A stretch of DNA of 64,000 nt from an uncultured bacterium. GTDB lineage: Bacteria > Bacillota_I > Bacilli_A > RFN20 > CAG-826. Below are positions 3,727 to 46,382 of the stretch, one piece after another (position 1 is the stretch's first letter; every line of letters begins with the position of its first letter). The stretch is from the NCBI GenBank assembly GCA_949285455.1, contig CASDXP010000003.1, positions 308 to 64,307 on the forward strand. The letters run 5' to 3'. The translations under genes were made by a program, and so were the position numbers. The notes under the pieces were generated by a model, which had not been told where the DNA came from, did not search any database, and saw only the letters and a list, made by a program, of their open reading frames with translations.

Positions 3727-5028
3727 TTATTCTTCTTCTTTTTCTACTTTTTGGCAGATAATCTTTTTCACCGTGTGGTGTTTACCTAAGGCGAGAACTT
3801 TCATCTTCACATCTTGGAACATGACTTCGTCACCCCTATTTGCGAATTTATCATCCAATAGTTCGATGATGAAACCACCGATGGTGACATATTCAGTATC
3901 AAGTTCTTCATAATCGATATCAAATAAAGTGCAGAAATCTTCTAAATTCATCCCTCCATCGACGATGTAACTGCCATCATTTCTTTCGATGTAAGGTTCA
4001 TCTTTATCATCCGTTTCATCCCAAATCTCACCGACGATTTCTTCGATGATATCTTCCCTTGTAATTAAACCTTCGGTTCCACCATATTCATCTAAGATAA
4101 TAGCGATATGTTCATGCTCTTTTTTAAAATAATTTAAGACATCATTTATTTCTGTCGTACGTGGGAAAAATTGAATATCTTCGATGACGTCGCTAATATC
4201 GTTCGTTCGTCCTTCTAATTTGAGACGAATCAACGCTTTAGAGCGAACGTATCCGATGATGTTGTCAATCGTTTCATCGTAGACTGGAATTCTTGAATAA
4301 TTGAAAGTTTTTGGACTCGCTAAAATATCATCTAAACTATCGTTTTTATCGATTGCGTAAATTTTCGCGCGTGGGGTCATAATTTCATAAGTTTCCGTCG
4401 AGGCATAATCGACTGTTCCCCTTAGAAGTTCAGCTTTATCTTCATCGATGAGCCCTTCTTCTTCCCCTTCATCGATCATTTCATGCAATTCTTCATCGCT
4501 TATTTTAATATCTTTAACATTCTTGGTAACTGGATAAGTGACTAAACTTCCAAAACCACCCACTAAGAAAGTGATAGGAATGGTGACGTAATAACAAATC
4601 GTAATAAGTGCACTATAGAAATTTGCGAACTTATAGTTATAAATTTTACCGATAGATTTCGCGATAATTTCACCGACCGTAATTTTTAAAACTAAGACAA
4701 TCAAAGAAGCGGCGAGACCAAAAGTATTCGTGATTTTTGGATCATAAATCCCCATAAATTCCGTCGCTAATAAGACACCGCACATCGTTGCAATCGTATC
4801 TAATGCCGCATTGATCGTATCGTTAAATAATAAGATGGTGGAGATAGTTTTATCGTAATTTCTCGTCAACTTTTCCGCTCTTTTTAAGCTGCTAGAAGGA
4901 TGAGTGTTAAGCCTTCTTAAAATACGTTCGTGAGAGACGCTACCATAAGCCATATCCGCACTCGAATAGATGAAGGATAAGAAAAGTAAGACAAAGATTA
5001 AAGCAATGTAAACCCAAAAGATAGCCAT
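3727..5028 (-). CDS. CNNM/DUF21-CBS-CorC_HlyC membrane protein (Mg2+/divalent cation transporter family)
   Basis: N-terminal TM helices with SSADMAY and GEIIAKSI. CBS pair (IMTPR, YSRIPVY, DEYGGTEGLITREDIIEEIVGEI) and C-terminal CorC_HlyC domain (YIVDG...TIGGF). Confidence 0.85.
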   Translation of the reverse strand: MAIFWVYIALIFVLLFLSFIYSSADMAYGSVSHERILRRLNTHPSSSLKRAEKLTRNYDKTISTILLFNDTINAALDTIATMCGVLLATEFMGIYDPKITNTFGLAASLIVLVLKITVGEIIAKSIGKIYNYKFANFYSALITICYYVTIPITFLVGGFGSLVTYPVTKNVKDIKISDEELHEMIDEGEEEGLIDEDKAELLRGTVDYASTETYEIMTPRAKIYAIDKNDSLDDILASPKTFNYSRIPVYDETIDNIIGYVRSKALIRLKLEGRTNDISDVIEDIQFFPRTTEINDVLNYFKKEHEHIAIILDEYGGTEGLITREDIIEEIVGEIWDETDDKDEPYIERNDGSYIVDGGMNLEDFCTLFDIDYEELDTEYVTIGGFIIELLDDKFANRGDEVMFQDVKMKVLALGKHHTVKKIICQKVEKEEE

Positions 5029-40998: not shown

Positions 40999-41754
40999 TT
41001 AATTCATCAACACAAAATCATCTAAATTAGGTTTTTCTTGGATAGCCACCAATTGTATTTCGATGTCGCTAGAGACATTTCTTTCTGGACTTTGAATTAA
41101 AGAAGACGCAAGCGTCACTAAATTATCTTCGATGAGAATATTATAATAATCTCTTGCTTTTCCATCCGTCAGATCATAAAAGAAATATAAATCCCCACTT
41201 CCCTCGCTCGAAAGATAATAATCTAAGCGATATTGTGGTTTCAATTGTTCTTCTCCGGCTTCCAATAAGACGAAATGTTCTAACATTGGTGCGATAATAT
41301 TTTCAATCGTCGATAAAGTAAATTCTTTTACATTAGAGGCTCCCATATAATTTTCGTAAGTTTTAACATATTCATTAAAATAAGCTTTTGCCTCTTCATT
41401 ATTGCTAAACTCGTAACGATAATAAGTGGCGGTTTTATCGAAACTAATTCTTGCATCGTAAAACACATTGTTTTCGACGTAGAACCATATTTCTTCAATA
41501 TCGCTCGAAACTTGCGTTAAGTTATAGTAATAATAGTTATTAAAGTCGAACACTTCATTTGTTACAATTTGATAATTATTTTCGCTCGTAGTCAATTTAG
41601 AAGTGAAGGAAGGACTAACGTAAAGTGGGTTATTTAAATGCGCCTTTATATTTTCTAAAACGCGCATCATCTCACTGGCGGGTTCGCCAGTCGAAGGATG
41701 ACAAGCACTTAGAAGAAGTAAAGGAAGTAAAGTTAAGGATAAATATTTTTTCAT
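40999..41754 (-). CDS. Hypothetical lipoprotein (array paralog 4)
   Basis: Lipobox LSAC and family motifs WFYVE, SSEGSGDL, PNLDDF. Confidence 0.75.
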   Translation of the reverse strand: MKKYLSLTLLPLLLLSACHPSTGEPASEMMRVLENIKAHLNNPLYVSPSFTSKLTTSENNYQIVTNEVFDFNNYYYYNLTQVSSDIEEIWFYVENNVFYDARISFDKTATYYRYEFSNNEEAKAYFNEYVKTYENYMGASNVKEFTLSTIENIIAPMLEHFVLLEAGEEQLKPQYRLDYYLSSEGSGDLYFFYDLTDGKARDYYNILIEDNLVTLASSLIQSPERNVSSDIEIQLVAIQEKPNLDDFVLMN

Positions 41755-43121
41755 AATTCACTCACTTTCTCATACGCACTTAAATCAGGATAAATTAAAT
41801 CGAATGCACCAACTTCAATAATTGATTCGTTAACGTAATTAGAGTCATTAACTATCATCGTCTGATGAACGTAAGCTAAATAGTTATTTTCAAGTTCGAT
41901 ATGCATCACTAAGTCATTAGAGGTATCTTCATAAATTAAATTAAGATAGCCTTCGCCACGCGAAGTTAAACTAGATGCACTTTCTAATAAATTACGCATC
42001 GAAGCGATAGTCATTAACGTCAAAGTATTTAAATTGTAACTAGTTTTGCCCTGCGTTACACTTTCTAATTCTAAGATATAAGTATCAAATAATGCTCTTG
42101 CATCTTCAACACTCGCACACTCAGTCAAAGTGTAAGTATTATCTTTTATTTGTACAAAGTTTTTTCCTTCGACGTAAGCATAAGTTAGGCTAGAATCTAA
42201 ACCTGTTCTTTCTTCGTAGAAGTAATAATTATCTAAATCGATCTTTTGATTTTGTGTCGTTATATCTTCGCCTAGCTTCACGAAAATATAATTCGTGTAA
42301 GCTGGTCTAGAAGTCATTCCATTTAGATAAGCTTCCATCGCATCTAATAACGCATTTGCCTTACTTACAGTAATCGGCTCTTCGATGATAAATTCTTTAA
42401 CATCCGGATATTCAAGCGGGACACCTAAAGTGAAAATTTCACTCATCTCATAATAATTATCTTCTTCATCTTGGATGATGAGACTATATTCTCTTAAATA
42501 ATATTCGTTGAAGACGATATTAATTTCATCGCTAACGCCATCGTTCATTTCCTTATATTTTAAAGAAAAATTTCCATGTTCATCAAAAGATGTTGAATAA
42601 GATAATTCTTCTAAGGCTTCATAATCACTATTATTATCATTTTCAAAATCGATAATATTATTGACGATGCTTCTTGCTTCTGTTAACGCTAATTTAGAAG
42701 CATCGACCCACGATTGTTTATAAGTTTCATCGAGCGAATCCATATAGGCCATAAATTTCGCTTGCGCGCTACTGACGTCTTCTAAATACTCGACTGCCCC
42801 GGTTTTTTCACCCACCACGTCAATTAAATAATAAACATTCATCTCATCGACGTAGACCCATAGTTCATTTTCGATGATATTAGAGCTTTCTTTCCTCATA
42901 TGAAAATAGAAATTAGAAGGATCATAACTTAATAAAATTTTACTTTCCTTTCCTTCTTCTTCAACGATAATATTTCTTGTAAAAAGAGGACTAGAAGAAA
43001 CCTTAGTAAGGTAATTTTCAATATTATCTAACGCTAGTAAAGTATCTTCCGCTGAAGGAATAGGTAAACAAGATGATAACATTAACGTCGATAACAAGAG
43101 TGGTATACATATTTTTTTCAT
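41751..43121 (-). CDS. Hypothetical lipoprotein with two tandem copies of the array domain (paralog 3)
   Basis: Lipobox LSSC. Motifs occur twice: WVYVD...YPDVKEF and YAYVE...TSRGEGYL...YPDLSAY. Confidence 0.75.
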   Translation of the reverse strand: MKKICIPLLLSTLMLSSCLPIPSAEDTLLALDNIENYLTKVSSSPLFTRNIIVEEEGKESKILLSYDPSNFYFHMRKESSNIIENELWVYVDEMNVYYLIDVVGEKTGAVEYLEDVSSAQAKFMAYMDSLDETYKQSWVDASKLALTEARSIVNNIIDFENDNNSDYEALEELSYSTSFDEHGNFSLKYKEMNDGVSDEINIVFNEYYLREYSLIIQDEEDNYYEMSEIFTLGVPLEYPDVKEFIIEEPITVSKANALLDAMEAYLNGMTSRPAYTNYIFVKLGEDITTQNQKIDLDNYYFYEERTGLDSSLTYAYVEGKNFVQIKDNTYTLTECASVEDARALFDTYILELESVTQGKTSYNLNTLTLMTIASMRNLLESASSLTSRGEGYLNLIYEDTSNDLVMHIELENNYLAYVHQTMIVNDSNYVNESIIEVGAFDLIYPDLSAYEKVSEL

Positions 43122-43171
43122 ACTTAAATCATCCTTAAAAAAAGACTACTCCATTATAAACTAAACCTAGA

Positions 43172-43208
43172 TAAAAATAAACGTAGCGAGCTCATAGCCC
43201 GCTACGCT
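43172..43208 (-). terminator. Intrinsic terminator after lipoprotein 43236-43988
   Basis: Minus-strand hairpin CGTAGCGGGC-tatga-GCTCGCTACG followed by TTTATTTTT. Confidence 0.7.
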
Positions 43209-43235
43209 AAATAGAAGGAGATTTTTAAAATTAAA

Positions 43236-43988
43236 TTATGCGCCAGTCACTAAAGTATAATCACTTAAATCTGGAATATTACGCGAAATACTTCTCACTT
43301 GGATATCGACGATTGAATCCATACTTTGCTCACCTTGCTTGGCACTAACTTTCATATGCGTAAGCCAGTAATTATCGATCCTAACTTCAACGGCTTCAGA
43401 TTCTCCGCCTTGACTCATGCTAAAAGAAATAGATAAATTACCATCGCCACTCGAACCAAGATGATAAGAGATATTTATCCCTTCTGGAACTTGTCCTTCG
43501 CCAGATTCAAGTAACATACAAGTTGGTAAAATTGAAGCACCTACTTCAAGACCAGATTGAGTTAAAGCCACTAAACTCCCGCCTCCACCATTTGATTCAA
43601 TGTAATCGATATACATATCAAAATTAGCTTGAGCTTCTTCTACACTCGCGCCTTCAGTAACCATATATTGTTTTTCACCTGCCAAATTTGAAACTACATA
43701 GAAATCCGTATCATCGACGTAGATCCAGCTTTCAGATGTCGCACCATCTGAAGTTGCTTTTTGATGAATATAATAATTTGCTAAATCTACATCCACTTCA
43801 GATTTTATCGGTGATGAACCAACCGTATTAGTTTCAATATCTCCGTGATAAGCTGTTTCTTCTGCGGTCGTTAAATGAGTAGCGATATCATTAGCGATTT
43901 CCCACGCATCGGCTGCTTTAATACCAGTTCCGCCACAAGATACGAGTGCGAAAGCAGGTAATAAGGCTAATAGAGAGATTTTCTTCAT
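43236..43988 (-). CDS. Hypothetical lipoprotein (array paralog 2)
   Basis: GGAGG SD, lipobox LVSC, motifs WIYVD, SSGDGNL, IPDLSDY. Confidence 0.8.
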   Translation of the reverse strand: MKKISLLALLPAFALVSCGGTGIKAADAWEIANDIATHLTTAEETAYHGDIETNTVGSSPIKSEVDVDLANYYIHQKATSDGATSESWIYVDDTDFYVVSNLAGEKQYMVTEGASVEEAQANFDMYIDYIESNGGGGSLVALTQSGLEVGASILPTCMLLESGEGQVPEGINISYHLGSSGDGNLSISFSMSQGGESEAVEVRIDNYWLTHMKVSAKQGEQSMDSIVDIQVRSISRNIPDLSDYTLVTGA

Positions 43989-44094
43989 AAACTTTTTTGC
44001 CTCCGAATCTTTCTAAATAAAGTATGAATAACATCAAAATTAAAATCAAGCAATTTTAAGTAATAAAATAATTAAATTTTTAACAACTAGACTA

Positions 44095-44830
44095 TTAATT
44101 GTTAACAATTACATAATTGGATAAATTTGGATAAATTAATTGTGGATTTTCTAGGCTGACACTCATTTCATACACTTCATTATGCGTCTTATCTTTAAAT
44201 TCTTGTTTACAATGAGAGACGTAATATTTATCGAAACTACGAACATATTTTTCTTTTTCTTCGCTCGGAGTAACAATTTCGTAACTGATACCTAAATTAC
44301 CTTCACCATTCGAAGTAATAGAATAATGAAAATCATATCCATCCGTATAAGTTATATCACCTGCTTCATAAACTTCTAATTCATCTAATAAAGAGGTAAC
44401 TTCATCGATGAATACTTTCGTTCTAGCCGCTAAGGAAGAATTGGTGAAATATGTATTAAAGTATTGAATAAACATCGCTTCCGCTTCTTCATCGTTTGTA
44501 ACTTCGATCACTTGATAGGCTCCATTTTCGCCATTTGCTTCCACGAGGTATAAGTTAAGATCTTGAACATACAAACATACATCGATAACTTCATCATTCG
44601 TAGGATTTTGATTGTAGGCATATAAATTAACGAAATCGAACGCCCCTTTTACATCTAGGACATTAACGTCATTAGCGTTACTAGTCATAGAATAAGTATA
44701 AGCAGGATTTTCAGTTGCTGTAAGAATGTAATTATCAATATCTTTAGCAATCCTATTAGCCTCACTCGCGCTGATAGAAGTTCCATCACAAGACGCTAAC
44801 GATAAAGTAGGCGCTAATATTCTTTTTCAT
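44095..44830 (-). pseudogene. Frameshifted lipoprotein (array paralog 1)
   Basis: The ATG at 44830 (GGGGAG SD) is one base out of frame with the open frame KRILAPTLSLASCDGTSISASEANRIAKDI. That frame aligns with paralog 2 and continues into ORF 44095-44688 (TSNGEGNL, YPNLSNY). Confidence 0.75.
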
Positions 44831-44889
44831 ATGCGAACTCCCCATAAATTCATTTTGCAAAAAAATATTTTTTGACACATGTAACATCA

Positions 44890-44931
44890 TAAAACTTACT
44901 TATGCAATTTTTCGTAGGTAAGTTTTGAATA
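44890..44931. repeat. 42-bp direct repeat, copy 1 (imperfect palindrome)
   Basis: TAAAACTTACTTATGCAATTTTTCGTAGGTAAGTTTTGAATA, identical to 46314-46355. Confidence 0.95.
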
Positions 44932-44953
44932 TTGAATACTTTCGTGTTAAAAT
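44925..44953 (+). promoter_or_regulatory. Leaderless sigma-A promoter (TTGAAT-17-TAAAAT, with extended -10 TG) of the DUF3990 cassette
   Basis: The -35 lies inside the 42-bp repeat. The extended -10 ends 6 nt before ATG 44960 and there is no SD. Confidence 0.6.
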
Positions 44954-44959
44954 GTAACC

Positions 44960-45811
44960 ATGTTAGGAAAATTTGAACTAAAAAAAGACGTCGAAAGAGC
45001 GTGCGAAATATTAAAACTAAGCGAAGCTAGCTTTGCTGATTTAGCGAACATTAACCTTCGTACTTTACAATATAATTACGAAGATAGTAATAACAATGAA
45101 GTCTTAGAAAAAGTTTATTCTACTATCTACCGCGCTCGTATTCGTCTAAATAAAATTAAATCTGAACTCTATTTTGAAAATTTAAATAAAGACGAATATT
45201 TATTGTTTCATGGCTCAAAAAACGGTATTGAAAAAATAGATGAAAGCGGCTCTAGATATAATTCTGATTTCGGTAACGGCTTTTATTGTTCTACATCATA
45301 TCAATCTAGCCTTGCGTTCATCGAAATGAACGAAAGTCCTTCGATTTATGTTTTCACTTTGGATAAAAAAGATTTGTCTATCATCGAAATAAAACCTTCT
45401 CGAGAATGGATGCTAATTGTTTGCTATTTTCGCGGAATGATCGATCAATATGCAACTCATCCTCTAATGCAAAAATGTTTGAATATGTTAAAAAATAAAG
45501 ATGTCATAATTGCTCCGATTGCGGACAATCGCATGTTCCAAATAATGCGTGATTTTGGAGAAGGTAATATTACAGATCAACAAGCAATTCATGCTCTATC
45601 AGCGAGCAGATTAGGAAATCAATACGTCTTTAAAACTAAAAAAGCTATCGATAAGTTAAAATTTATAGAAAGACTTTATGTTTCAAATTCAGAAAGAAAA
45701 AATTCATTTGAAAATACCGAAGAAAGAAAAGTTGAAATAGATAATAAATTAAAACTATCTAAACGTGAATTTAGAAATGAAGGAAAATATATTGATGAGG
45801 TGTTCGAATGA
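44960..45811 (+). CDS. DUF3990 (ADP-ribosyltransferase-like) putative toxin with N-terminal HTH-like region
   Basis: LFHGS, SDFGNGFYCS, EWMLIVCYFR, DVIIAPIADNRMF and LGNQYVFKTKKA match DUF3990 as I recall it. The N-terminus LSEASFADLANINLRTL is XRE-HTH-like. Confidence 0.75.
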   Translation: MLGKFELKKDVERACEILKLSEASFADLANINLRTLQYNYEDSNNNEVLEKVYSTIYRARIRLNKIKSELYFENLNKDEYLLFHGSKNGIEKIDESGSRYNSDFGNGFYCSTSYQSSLAFIEMNESPSIYVFTLDKKDLSIIEIKPSREWMLIVCYFRGMIDQYATHPLMQKCLNMLKNKDVIIAPIADNRMFQIMRDFGEGNITDQQAIHALSASRLGNQYVFKTKKAIDKLKFIERLYVSNSERKNSFENTEERKVEIDNKLKLSKREFRNEGKYIDEVFE

Positions 45812-46308
45812 AGAAACTTGATAACGATGGTTTAAAACTTTGTGCTTACCAAGCTCAAATTTTTGAAGTTTCTCCCGCTAAATTTCAAGGTTCGAGCAAA
45901 ATTTTCTTACGCCGCTTCTACCGTAGCAAATTTGCGATGAAATTAGATGAAGGTTATCTTAGTCAACTTAACCTTAGTGTCGATGAAGCTTTCGAAAGCA
46001 TCGAAAAACAATTTGGAAAGACAAATTATGGCCAAGTAAAATATGATAAAAATGAGCTTTATTGGATTGGCTATATCACAAGATATATATGTTATACAAG
46101 AGAGGTAAGTTCTATATTCGTCTACAAAACTTTTCCTACCCAATTACTGCTCGATTGTTATAAAGGTTATCATAGTCAAGGTGAAGAATGGGTCATCGCT
46201 CATCTCTTAGAAACTTTACAATTAGATGAATCTTATTTCGATATTAATGTGAGATTAAAAAATCTTCTAAGAACAGAAACGAAGAAAAGCGAAGAAAAAA
46301 CCATTTAA
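45808..46308 (+). CDS. Putative antitoxin partner of the DUF3990 protein
   Basis: ATGA overlap with the upstream gene. LCAYQAQIFE, SKIFLRRFYRS, LYWIGYITRY and YHS resemble the helical family usually found next to DUF3990. Confidence 0.6.
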   Translation: MKKLDNDGLKLCAYQAQIFEVSPAKFQGSSKIFLRRFYRSKFAMKLDEGYLSQLNLSVDEAFESIEKQFGKTNYGQVKYDKNELYWIGYITRYICYTREVSSIFVYKTFPTQLLLDCYKGYHSQGEEWVIAHLLETLQLDESYFDINVRLKNLLRTETKKSEEKTI

Positions 46309-46313
46309 ATATT

Positions 46314-46355
46314 TAAAACTTACTTATGCAATTTTTCGTAGGTAAGTTTTGAATA
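46314..46355. repeat. 42-bp direct repeat, copy 2
   Basis: Exact copy of 44890-44931 in the same orientation, starting 5 nt after the stop codon of the putative antitoxin. Confidence 0.95.
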
Positions 46356-46360
46356 AAAAG

Positions 46361-46382
46361 AAAAAGGGCAAGAAGCCCTTTT
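46361..46382. terminator. Bidirectional intrinsic terminator
   Basis: AAAAAGGGC-aagaa-GCCCTTTT between convergent units (end of the alpha operon versus the cassette). Confidence 0.75.

What the first reader, a model, noticed from the sequence alone, without database searches (positions are those of the whole stretch)
44890..46355. Two-gene toxin/antitoxin-like cassette bracketed by an exact 42-bp palindromic direct repeat with recombinase-site geometry
Seen in sequence: TAAAACTTACTTATGCAATTTTTCGTAGGTAAGTTTTGAATA occurs identically at 44890 and 46314 (1424 bp apart, same orientation) and encloses only the DUF3990 gene and its partner. The core is AAAACTTACTTATG-CAATTTTT-CGTAGGTAAGTTTT, i.e. 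14-bp arms around an asymmetric 8-bp spacer. Both arm mismatches are G:T pairs on the plus strand, so that strand can fold into an uninterrupted 14-bp hairpin. The repeat also supplies the -35 (TTGAAT) of the cassette promoter, so an excised circle would keep its promoter. The cassette runs opposite to its neighbours and encodes no integrase or transposase. Established knowledge: arm-8bp-arm geometry is typical of loxP/FRT-type tyrosine-recombinase sites, and pdif modules and integron cassettes often carry TA pairs. Inference: this may be a non-autonomous cassette mobilised in trans at a palindromic att site. Alternatively the repeats are paired operators bound by the HTH-bearing protein.
Basis: partly seen in the sequence, partly recalled or inferred. 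Interest (0 to 1): 0.8.

Follow-up and report, generated by a model that had tools for sequence, protein, structure and literature searches.

The report
Paired operators bracketing a toxin-like cassette
The exact 42-base repeat is real, but it looks like the cassette's own palindromic control site, present once at the promoter and once at the end of the operon, rather than a recombinase site for a mobile cassette.

Summary
The 42-nt exact direct repeat (44890-44931, 46314-46355) is confirmed. These are its only two copies in the 1.1 Mb genome.

It encloses a two-gene operon. Gene 1 has an Xre-like HTH N-terminus fused to a DUF3990 (ADP-ribosyltransferase-fold) domain. Gene 2 is an all-helical 166-aa partner.

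Across 56 non-duplicate homologous cassettes, a 32-nt palindrome of the same design lies just upstream of gene 1 in 43 of 54 scorable loci, abutting the -35 of an apparently leaderless promoter.
- 14 loci carry two upstream copies, 12 of them 46-47 bp apart.
- 12 of 55 scorable loci, this window among them, carry one upstream copy and one at the partner's stop codon.
- No locus has both arrangements.

Both copies are almost unchanged between two species whose synonymous sites are near saturation.

The "8-bp spacer" is the degenerate centre of a continuous palindrome. The locus is not a replication terminus. Three empty sites at one relative's cassette locus lack the palindrome. The one loss at this locus is an imprecise deletion.

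Best reading: paired operators of a bivalent repressor complex, as in Xre-RES systems (confidence about 0.6).

Exact identity of the two copies in five diverged lineages, and solo copies in genomes lacking the cassette, leave room for DNA exchange between the sites.

The parts
44871..44889 (.). 19-nt block directly left of the upstream repeat, in the divergent intergenic region
   Evidence: Identical between G000 and G001 although other intergenic bases differ and dS is 0.8-1.1. Function not determined. It could be a further binding site or part of the divergent lipoprotein gene's promoter.
44890..44931 (+). Upstream copy of the 42-nt repeat. Its 32-nt palindromic core (44893-44924) is the proposed promoter-proximal operator.
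   Evidence: Exact repeat. 41 of 42 nt identical in G001. A palindrome of the same design sits at the same place, about 64-68 nt before the ATG in most of the closest relatives, in 43 of 54 scorable homologous loci.
44925..44953 (+). Promoter-like site of the cassette. The first hexamer overlaps the repeat, and the TG-extended second hexamer ends 6 nt before the ATG.
   Evidence: Consensus scan. In 10 of 11 closest loci a -10-like hexamer ends 6-7 nt before the start codon with no Shine-Dalgarno between them, which suggests a leaderless mRNA.
44960..45811 (+). Gene 1, 283 aa: N-terminal Xre-like HTH (about residues 1-75) fused to a DUF3990 / ADP-ribosyltransferase-fold domain (82-235) and a C-terminal helix
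   Evidence: Pfam PF13151 E 9.9e-34. N-terminus gives a weak Xre-like-HTH PF20432 match, E 0.029, below the cut-off. AlphaFold2 mean pLDDT 92.4. Foldseek top matches are MbcT (E 6.3e-4), PARP and tankyrase catalytic domains and Pseudomonas putida RES. dN/dS about 0.06 against G001.
45808..46308 (+). Gene 2, 166 aa: all-helical partner whose start overlaps the stop of gene 1
   Evidence: Found directly downstream in 34 of 34 homologous loci. Weak DUF3791 match at E 0.07 and PADLOC PDC-M42B at E 0.0046. pLDDT 91.4 with no clear solved-structure match. Complex model with gene 1 scores 0.76 against a best control of 0.00. dN/dS about 0.10.
46314..46355 (+). Downstream copy of the 42-nt repeat, starting 6 nt after the partner's stop codon. 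Proposed distal operator, possibly also a 3' RNA hairpin.
   Evidence: Exact repeat. 40 of 42 nt conserved in G001. A palindrome at or overlapping the partner's stop codon occurs in 12 of 55 scorable loci, all without a tandem upstream pair.
46362..46382 (.). G+C-rich stem-loop flanked by A and T runs: a terminator-like site between the cassette and the convergent small membrane-protein gene
   Evidence: Terminator scan hit on the - strand. Folds together with the repeat hairpin at -30.2 kcal/mol on +. Conserved in G001 and G002.

Best explanation
The repeat is the cassette's own operator, present twice.

The cassette is a toxin-antitoxin-like, or defence-candidate, operon. Gene 1 joins an Xre-type helix-turn-helix domain to a DUF3990 domain with an ADP-ribosyltransferase fold. 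Gene 2 is a small helical partner predicted to contact the HTH domain and linker of gene 1.

Inferred mechanism:
- A multimeric gene 1/partner complex carries two HTH dimers and binds two 32-nt palindromes at once.
- Most relatives place the two sites in tandem upstream, 46-47 bp apart.
- In this clade one site abuts the -35 of a leaderless promoter and the other sits at the partner's stop codon, about 1.4 kb away. Binding both would loop the whole operon and shut the promoter.
- The distal site may also block read-through or form the 3' hairpin of the mRNA.

Shown here: the site's family-wide linkage to the cassette, its position at the promoter, the two alternative two-site layouts, and strong purifying selection on both copies.

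Inferred, not shown: which protein binds, that binding represses, that a loop forms, and that gene 1 is toxic.
For: 1. Family-wide linkage. A strict scan was run over the window region plus 34 homologous loci (35 loci of 2.8-7.3 kb). It looked for a 32-mer with the window's 5-nt outer motif allowing at most 1 mismatch, and at least 12 of 16 complementary pairs. Every hit lies upstream of gene 1 (28 loci, counting L071) or at the partner's stop codon (7 loci, counting L044). There were no hits elsewhere. The same scan of the whole own genome finds only the two cassette sites.

2. Two alternative layouts. A lenient scan covered 56 non-duplicate loci.
- 43 of 54 scorable loci have an upstream site.
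- 14 have two upstream sites, 12 of them 46-47 bp apart.
- 12 of 55 scorable loci have a site at the partner's stop codon.
- No locus has both a tandem upstream pair and a downstream site.

3. Promoter geometry. A -10-like hexamer ends 6-7 nt before the ATG in 10 of 11 closest loci. The palindrome's right edge reaches the -35 position.

4. Selection. Between G000 and G001, dS is 0.78 for gene 1 and 1.11 for the partner. Even so, the upstream copy plus 19 nt to its left form an identical 60-nt block, and the downstream copy keeps 40 of 42 nt. dN/dS is 0.06 and 0.10.

5. DNA-binding candidate. The N-terminal approx. 60 residues show the Xre-type pattern across 33 aligned homologues, with four short helices in the model and a weak PF20432 match.

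6. Complex. The gene 1-partner model scores 0.76 against a best control of 0.00. In calibration this mark was reached by 58 of 80 solved complexes and 2 of 110 mismatched pairs. The three runs agree in 100% of contacts and the partner's pLDDT is at least 89. My own alignments were used, so the calibration counts hold only roughly.

7. Precedent. The Pseudomonas putida Xre-RES complex (RES is an ART-fold toxin) binds an imperfect palindrome in its promoter. Its authors propose that it engages two DNA sites with its two Xre dimers (PMC12204516: abstract and sections 7 and 11 read).

8. Symmetry. Half-site asymmetry is not conserved between lineages, as expected for a symmetric dimer site.
Against: - No binding, repression or looping was measured.
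- The HTH match is below Pfam's cut-off.
- 11 of 54 scorable loci show no upstream site even with lenient criteria.
- A distal operator exactly at a stop codon is unusual, and its benefit is not explained.
- Upstream and downstream copies are exactly identical in five diverged lineages: the window, L041, L047, L142 and L151. They share the same imperfections, and in four of the five the identity stops at the palindrome's edges. L149 and L151 share a downstream neighbour gene and are each other's closest relatives at 59% aa identity, yet they carry different site sequences. That points to copying between the two sites, which selection for binding alone does not predict.
- Solo palindromes persist in G003, G159 and G266, which have no DUF3990 gene.
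Confidence: 0.6

Rival explanations
1. The two palindromes are att-like recombination sites, and the cassette is a non-autonomous module excised and integrated in trans by a host tyrosine recombinase, in the manner of Xer, integron or loxP systems.
For: - The two sites are direct repeats and are exactly identical here and in four other diverged lineages. In four of the five the identity is confined to the palindrome.
- The cassette sits in different genomic contexts and is patchy: 104 of 401 family genomes and 17 of 48 genera, with up to 4 copies per genome.
- Solo palindromes without any cassette-gene remnant occur in G003 and G159/G266.
- Synteny ends close to the cassette's 3' end in two pairs of near-identical cassettes, L043/L044 and L048/L049.
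- The genome has four tyrosine recombinases.
Against: - There is no conserved spacer and no conserved asymmetry. The element is a continuous palindrome.
- In 14 loci the two sites are both upstream and do not flank the cassette.
- The site always sits at the promoter.
- Three genomes (G192, G197, G201) hold both flanks of the L041 locus. They lack a strict palindrome at the empty site, and the inserted DNA runs about 65 bp and 170-200 bp beyond the two palindromes. One lenient, inverted-motif hit lies at the junction in two of them.
- G002 lost the cassette by a deletion from window 44126 to 46036, not between the repeats.
- The shared segment of L043 and L044 starts 440 bp upstream of the upstream site.
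- GC skew and gene orientation show no terminus here.
- The recombinase found only in the two cassette-bearing genus members lies in an hsdS shufflon.
- Both copies have stayed in place since before the G000/G001 split.
Confidence: 0.12
2. Only the upstream copy is functional. The downstream copy is a by-product of unequal homologous recombination or tandem duplication between operator copies. It survives because it is short and recurrently regenerated.
For: - Tandem cassettes exist (L044: two cassettes head to tail).
- Solo sites exist.
- Exact identity of the two copies with shared imperfections suggests copying.
- In this window the identity runs 5 nt past the palindrome into the -35-like hexamer, which has no evident use downstream.
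Against: - The downstream copy keeps 40 of 42 nt between species with dS 0.8-1.1.
- Its position at or overlapping the partner's stop codon recurs in 12 loci.
- It is mutually exclusive with the tandem upstream layout. That pattern points to a needed second site, not a passenger.
Confidence: 0.12
3. The downstream copy acts mainly at the RNA level, as the 3' hairpin of the leaderless mRNA for termination or stability. Its likeness to the operator is secondary.
For: - The sense strand folds at least as well as the antisense strand within 0.5 kcal/mol for 8 of 8 downstream sites, and clearly better for 6 of them.
- Upstream sites split 3 to 3.
- The hairpin is followed by a short T run in most lineages.
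- Here the + strand folds at -14 kcal/mol against -6.4.
Against: - An RNA hairpin need not share the operator's sequence, yet it does in every lineage.
- The T tract is only 3-4 nt and the stems are A+T-rich.
- A canonical terminator follows 6 nt later in this window.
- The trend rests on 8 related sites.
- No RNA run holding the stretch was listed, so transcript ends could not be read.
Confidence: 0.1

Closest known systems
Xre-RES type II toxin-antitoxin systems (Pseudomonas putida Xre-RES; Mycobacterium tuberculosis MbcT-MbcA)
   Same: - An ART-fold protein paired with a small partner in a two-gene operon.
- An Xre-type HTH.
- Autoregulation through an imperfect palindrome in the promoter.
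- A complex with two DNA-binding dimers that its authors propose binds two DNA sites (PMC12204516).
- MbcT and RES are among the best structural matches of gene 1.
   Different: - Here the HTH is fused to the ART-fold protein itself, not to the antitoxin.
- The ART-fold domain is DUF3990, not RES.
- The partner has no solved-structure relative.
- The partner is predicted to touch the HTH domain and linker rather than the catalytic domain.
- The second site lies 1.4 kb away at the operon's end instead of about 20 bp upstream.
PADLOC candidate defence systems PDC-M42, PDC-M13 and PDC-M10
   Same: Gene 1's DUF3990 domain matches PDC-M13B (E 2.3e-22), PDC-M13A, PDC-M10A and PDC-M42A. The partner weakly matches PDC-M42B at E 0.0046.
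   Different: - The matches cover residues 80-247 at most, never the HTH extension.
- The partner match is weak.
- These systems are candidates without a described mechanism in the library.
- No defence function was tested here.
Distal-operator looping systems (lac O1/O2, gal OE/OI, deo). Recalled from textbook knowledge, not from a call.
   Same: A promoter-proximal operator plus a second operator hundreds of base pairs away, inside or beyond the operon, bound by one multivalent repressor.
   Different: - Those repressors are unrelated.
- The distance here is about 1.4 kb.
- The distal site sits exactly at the last stop codon.
- Looping is inferred here, not shown.
loxP/FRT-type sites, dif/pdif modules and integron cassettes
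   Same: Short inverted-repeat sites in direct orientation around a small promoter-bearing cassette.
   Different: - No conserved spacer.
- Not at a terminus.
- No integron integrase: those models score far below their cut-offs.
- Tandem upstream arrangement in many relatives.
- Empty sites lack the palindrome.

Membership tests
Tyrosine-recombinase core site of loxP/FRT type | Two inverted arms around a conserved, asymmetric 6-8 bp crossover spacer that gives the site direction | tested here: not met
   Readable in this genome only. In relatives the centre completes a continuous palindrome of two 16-nt half-sites, and which half carries the mismatches differs between lineages.
Tyrosine-recombinase core site of loxP/FRT type | A cognate recombinase that co-occurs with the sites | tested here: inconclusive
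   G000 has four Phage_integrase-family genes, none in the window. They are an XerD, an XerC-like gene, one beside surface-protein genes and one in an hsdS shufflon. The last is present only in G000 and G001 of four genus members, and its context explains it.
Tyrosine-recombinase core site of loxP/FRT type | Empty alleles that keep exactly one copy of the site, or circle junctions | tested here: not met
   G002 has an imprecise deletion. G192, G197 and G201 have both flanks of the L041 locus and no strict palindrome. The only runs found are assembled contigs, which cannot show rare junctions.
Chromosomal dif site with an integrated element (IMEX) or pdif module | The site lies at the replication terminus, marked by a GC-skew switch and converging gene orientation | tested here: not met
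   GC skew is negative along almost all of the 142-kb contig. Genes on both sides are on the - strand.
Integron gene cassette | attC site recombined by an integron integrase encoded nearby | tested here: not met
   Integron-integrase models score 40-140 bits against cut-offs of 265-435 for all four recombinases. None is near the cassette.
IS200/IS605-type or palindrome-associated transposable element | Subterminal hairpins recognised by a Y1 HUH transposase present in the genome | not tested
   No search for a Y1 transposase was run. The strand preference of the hairpin is not conserved for upstream sites.
Type II toxin-antitoxin module with autoregulation (Xre-RES-like) | Two small co-directional genes with overlapping or abutting reading frames, always found together | tested here: met
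   The stop of gene 1 overlaps the start of gene 2. A partner ORF follows directly in 34 of 34 homologous loci.
Type II toxin-antitoxin module with autoregulation (Xre-RES-like) | A toxin-type catalytic fold | tested here: met
   PF13151 at E 9.9e-34. DUF3990 is listed in Pfam's ART clan (PMC7955679, one passage read). Foldseek matches MbcT at E 6.3e-4 (TM 0.51 by target), plus PARPs and RES. A DUF3990 domain forms the C-terminal tip of a Serratia Rhs protein (PMC4524185, one passage read). Catalytic residues were not examined.
Type II toxin-antitoxin module with autoregulation (Xre-RES-like) | An HTH DNA-binding domain in one of the two proteins | tested here: inconclusive
   PF20432 Xre-like-HTH gives E 0.029 and 15.1 bits against a cut-off of 25.8. 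An Xre-like sequence pattern appears in the 33-sequence alignment. The model has helices at 7-18, 22-28, 33-38 and 46-58. The N-terminal domain was not folded and searched on its own.
Type II toxin-antitoxin module with autoregulation (Xre-RES-like) | A palindromic operator overlapping the module's own promoter | tested here: met
   Position and family-wide linkage and purifying selection. Binding itself is not testable with these tools.
Type II toxin-antitoxin module with autoregulation (Xre-RES-like) | Toxicity of one protein that is neutralised by the other | not testable with these tools
   Only a complex model exists: score 0.76 against a best control of 0.00.
PADLOC candidate system PDC-M42 | Both components match the A and B models | tested here: inconclusive
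   A matches at E 9e-8 and B at E 0.0046. Stronger matches of gene 1 go to PDC-M13 and PDC-M10.

The most novel reading that the evidence does not exclude
The palindromes are both operators and substrates for DNA exchange. The two copies would be repeatedly recombined or converted against each other. The agent could be a host recombinase, or homologous or template-switch events favoured when the repressor complex holds the sites together. The cassette could then delete to a solo site, duplicate into tandem arrays and re-home. Its regulatory site would double as its mobility or copy-number device. This would account for exact identity of the two copies with shared imperfections in five diverged lineages, solo sites in genomes without the cassette, tandem cassettes, and the patchy multi-copy distribution.
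Probability: 0.15. Interest if true: 0.75.

Novelty: new variant of a known kind. Interest (0 to 1): 0.45.

Why it matters
This cassette family (HTH-DUF3990 plus partner) has no experimental description in the text searched. 'DUF3990' appears in 4 papers and 'DUF3791' in 1, none about its function. It is common in this family of small-genome gut Bacilli: 104 of 401 genomes.

The work here gives it three testable parts:
- a defined cis element,
- a defined, probably leaderless, promoter,
- a partner predicted to bind the HTH domain and linker rather than the catalytic domain.

The two alternative two-site layouts, tandem upstream or bracketing the operon, form a natural experiment on how a bivalent toxin-antitoxin repressor uses a second site.

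The finding also warns against reading recombinase geometry into a single palindrome. The apparent spacer vanished once relatives were compared.

Tried and rejected
- Chromosomal dif reading: rejected. There is no GC-skew or gene-orientation switch.
- Dispersed REP-like element: rejected.
  - Two copies in the own genome.
  - 5 of 151 family genomes hold a near match.
  - A degenerate pattern found only 4 other records in genome contigs, 0 in viral contigs and 0 in metagenome contigs.
- Fourth recombinase as the cassette's partner: rejected. It sits among three hsdS genes and hsdM.
- Known RNA family: none. The best Rfam E-value was 0.49 and all matches were far below gathering scores.
- Partner's fold: Foldseek best E 1.6. 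VIA-align wide best Z 3.9, with none of 48,161 chains at Z 5 or more. No family is excluded by this.
- NCBIfam: no match for either cassette protein.
- Sequencing runs:
  - Two DNA runs from one study held a small share of words, and no RNA holder was listed.
  - Laid as contigs, they show a relative (about 87% identical) carrying the cassette, and a 39-nt palindrome-like match in two small contigs in another context.
  - The only joint listed is 71 skipped bases replaced by 82 others upstream of the cassette; none joins the two repeats. Contigs cannot show rare forms.
- Empty-site searches:
  - Around L047 and L142: no syntenic relatives found.
  - Around L151: relatives share only the downstream neighbour, with no palindrome or cassette gene within 0.6-1.5 kb, so these are not clean empty sites.
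- Earlier findings of this scan: nothing on this sequence or place.
- Parameter errors: searches failed and were redone correctly.
I did not resend the letters. The flank comparison was then made only for L142 and L151, by coordinate reference. Difference counts for the other pairs were made by eye from the outputs.
- Supplementary files of the papers were not seen. Those of PMC12204516 may hold the operator sequences and constructs.
Full report
**Observation**

The 42-nt string is present exactly twice, at 44890-44931 and 46314-46355 on the same strand, 1424 nt apart. No shuffle of the window gave any match.

- It is not dispersed. Its 36-nt core has only these two copies in the 1.1 Mb genome with up to 3 mismatches. 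A strict palindrome scan of the whole genome returns only these two places.
- The repeat encloses two overlapping + strand genes: a 283-aa protein with a DUF3990 domain (Pfam E 9.9e-34) and a 166-aa partner.
- Nearly every other gene on the 142-kb contig is on the - strand.
- The + strand folds into a 15-pair hairpin at -14 kcal/mol (z -4.85). The - strand does not, at -6.4 kcal/mol (z -1.35).
- A promoter-like site overlaps the right end of the upstream copy. A G+C-rich terminator-like stem follows the downstream copy.
- A same-genus genome, G001, has the same structure, and an independent metagenome contig about 87% identical to the window spans the whole cassette region. So this is not an assembly artefact.

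**Tests of the recombination-site reading**

1. Terminus. GC skew stays negative and gene orientation does not switch at the locus, so it is not a terminus or dif site.
2. Recombinases. The genome has four tyrosine recombinases.
   - One reaches the XerD cut-off.
   - One is XerC-like.
   - One lies beside large surface-protein genes and is present in all four genus members.
   - One is present only in the two cassette-bearing genus members, but it sits among three hsdS genes and hsdM. That is a known kind of shufflon.
3. Loss at this locus. G002 lost window 44126-46036. The deletion takes the third lipoprotein gene, the upstream copy, gene 1 and the 5' part of the partner. It leaves a frame-broken 3' remnant of the partner and one palindrome copy. 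This is an ordinary deletion, not an exchange between the repeats.
4. Other genus member. G003 has other genes at the rplQ-side locus.
5. Clean empty sites. Both flanks could be followed for one related cassette, L041. Three genomes (G192, G197, G201) join the flanks with 40-176 bp or directly and show no strict palindrome. The inserted DNA in L041 runs about 65 bp and 170-200 bp beyond the two palindromes. One lenient hit with the outer motifs inverted lies at the junction in two of them. I take it as chance, and I report it.

**What the palindrome is linked to**

A protein-guided search of one genome per species gave 34 full-length homologues of gene 1 at 33-90% identity. All 34 have the partner gene directly downstream, and only G001's locus is next to rplQ.

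- Strict scan (32-mer with the window's 5-nt outer motif, at least 12 of 16 complementary pairs): it hits upstream of gene 1 in 28 of 35 loci and at the partner's stop codon in 7. It hits nowhere else.
- More loci from the organism's own family were added and 9 duplicate records dropped. A lenient scan of the resulting 56 loci gives:
  - an upstream site in 43 of 54 scorable loci;
  - two upstream sites in 14, 12 of them 46-47 bp apart;
  - a site at the stop codon in 12 of 55;
  - no locus with both a tandem upstream pair and a downstream site.
- The lenient criteria hit 68 times in the 1.1 Mb own genome, so about one false hit per 70 loci is expected in the scanned intervals.
- The half-sites are 16 nt long and meet at the centre. 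Which half carries the mismatches varies between lineages.

**Promoter and selection**

In 10 of 11 closest loci a -10-like hexamer ends 6-7 nt before the ATG, with no Shine-Dalgarno sequence. This points to a leaderless mRNA and fixes the promoter. The palindrome's right edge then falls at the -35 position.

Between G000 and G001 the synonymous distance is 0.78 for gene 1 and 1.11 for the partner, with dN/dS of 0.06 and 0.10.

- The upstream copy plus 19 nt to its left is an unbroken identical block of 60 nt.
- The downstream copy keeps 40 of 42 nt.
- The promoter spacer next to the upstream copy has diverged.

Both copies are therefore old and under purifying selection. They are not a fresh insertion scar.

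**The proteins**

- Gene 1 models with mean pLDDT 92.4. Its best solved-structure matches are MbcT (E 6.3e-4), PARP and tankyrase catalytic domains, the diphtheria toxin catalytic domain and Pseudomonas putida RES. That is an ADP-ribosyltransferase fold.
- This agrees with Pfam placing DUF3990 in the ART clan (PMC7955679, one passage read). A DUF3990 domain also forms the variable C-terminal tip of a Serratia Rhs protein (PMC4524185, one passage read).
- Gene 1's first approx. 60 residues show an Xre-type HTH pattern in the 33-sequence alignment, with a sub-threshold PF20432 match.
- The partner is all-helical (pLDDT 91.4). It has only weak DUF3791 and PDC-M42B matches and no clear solved-structure relative.
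- A complex model supports binding with a score of 0.76 against a best control of 0.00.
  - In calibration the mark was reached by 58 of 80 solved complexes and 2 of 110 mismatched pairs.
  - The runs agree in 100% of contacts and the partner's pLDDT is at least 89.
  - My own alignments were used.
  - The interface joins the partner's C-terminal helices to gene 1 residues 13-20 and 59-74, which are the HTH domain and linker.
- Neither protein resembles a recombinase or transposase.

**Best explanation**

The palindrome is the cassette's operator, and the system needs two of them. Most relatives place them in tandem upstream. This clade places one at the promoter and one at the operon's end.

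The closest described system is Xre-RES. There a 4:2 complex with two Xre dimers represses its promoter through an imperfect palindrome, and its authors propose that it holds two DNA sites at once (PMC12204516: abstract and sections 7 and 11 read).

Binding, repression, looping and toxicity are inferred here, not shown.

**What this does not explain**

- The two copies are exactly identical in five diverged lineages (window, L041, L047, L142, L151), each with its own sequence and its own shared imperfections. In four of the five the identity ends at the palindrome's edges.
- Other pairs differ at 1 to 7 of 32 positions (L040 1, L044 5, L045 5, L043 6, L141 6, L149 6, L042 7). I counted these by eye.
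- L149 and L151 share a downstream neighbour gene and are each other's closest relatives at 59% aa identity. Yet they carry different site sequences, while L151's two copies are identical. This looks like copying between the two sites.
- Solo palindromes with no cassette-gene remnant exist in G003 and in G159/G266, which have no DUF3990 match.
  - The G159/G266 solo is no better conserved than its flanks.
  - The G003 solo is followed at the same 21-nt spacing by a TG-extended -10-like box. It therefore looks like an orphaned upstream operator-promoter and not the product of an exchange between two copies (read by eye).
- The downstream sites tend to fold better on the sense strand, clearly so for 6 of 8. 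Upstream sites split 3 to 3. This is a weak hint of an added RNA role.

**Novelty and verdict**

The cassette is an uncharacterised but common HTH-ART fusion module, found in 104 of 401 family genomes and 17 of 48 genera.

An operator pair that brackets the operon is a new variant of toxin-antitoxin autoregulation, not a new kind of element. Text searches for 'DUF3990' (4 papers) and 'DUF3791' (1 paper) found no functional study. Supplements were not seen.

Noticed in passing
window 44095-44830 (- strand): The third gene of a paralogous lipoprotein cluster (41751-44830) is frameshifted inside its signal peptide. The ATG frame stops after 14 codons, and the lipobox and mature protein continue in another frame after a short A run. 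G001's orthologue is also broken, at other places. This could be a pseudogene, phase variation or a homopolymer error.
   Followed up: partly
G000 contig C1 about 156.8-163.3 kb (locus L038 6873-13332): A type I restriction-modification locus holds a tyrosine recombinase next to three hsdS genes in both orientations, plus hsdM. It looks like an hsdS shufflon. The recombinase was found in G000 and G001 but not in G002 or G003.
   Followed up: partly
window 44948-44962 and the equivalent place in loci L040-L048: The cassette's -10-like hexamer ends 6-7 nt before the ATG in 10 of 11 closest loci, with no Shine-Dalgarno sequence. This suggests leaderless translation of gene 1.
   Followed up: partly
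locus L044 80-3112: Two diverged HTH-DUF3990/partner cassettes lie head to tail on one contig, with another ORF between them. L073 has a second partner-like gene on the opposite strand with its own palindrome.
   Followed up: no
locus L019 1488-1535 (G159) and L176 about 2729-2769 (G266): A near-perfect 40-nt solo palindrome of the same design lies about 200 nt upstream of a YebC-like gene in two related genomes that have no DUF3990 gene. It sits next to fragments of an ATPase-like gene.
   Followed up: partly
window 46312-46350 against runs X1 and X2: Two small metagenome contigs (839 and 2089 nt) match only the palindrome, with 5 differences, and continue into unrelated sequence on both sides. 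This is another solo or foreign copy in the same study's samples.
   Followed up: no
locus L041 about 4560-4700 and the empty-site loci L129-L131: A conserved structured leader follows the cassette insertion in L041 and follows the upstream gene directly in three relatives. From recall it looks like an FMN riboswitch. It was not run against Rfam.
   Followed up: no
loci L043/L044 and L048/L049: Pairs of cassettes about 94-95% identical lose all similarity within about 10 nt of the partner gene's end. In L043 the partner is 32 aa shorter, and the palindrome is joined directly to the truncated end.
   Followed up: partly
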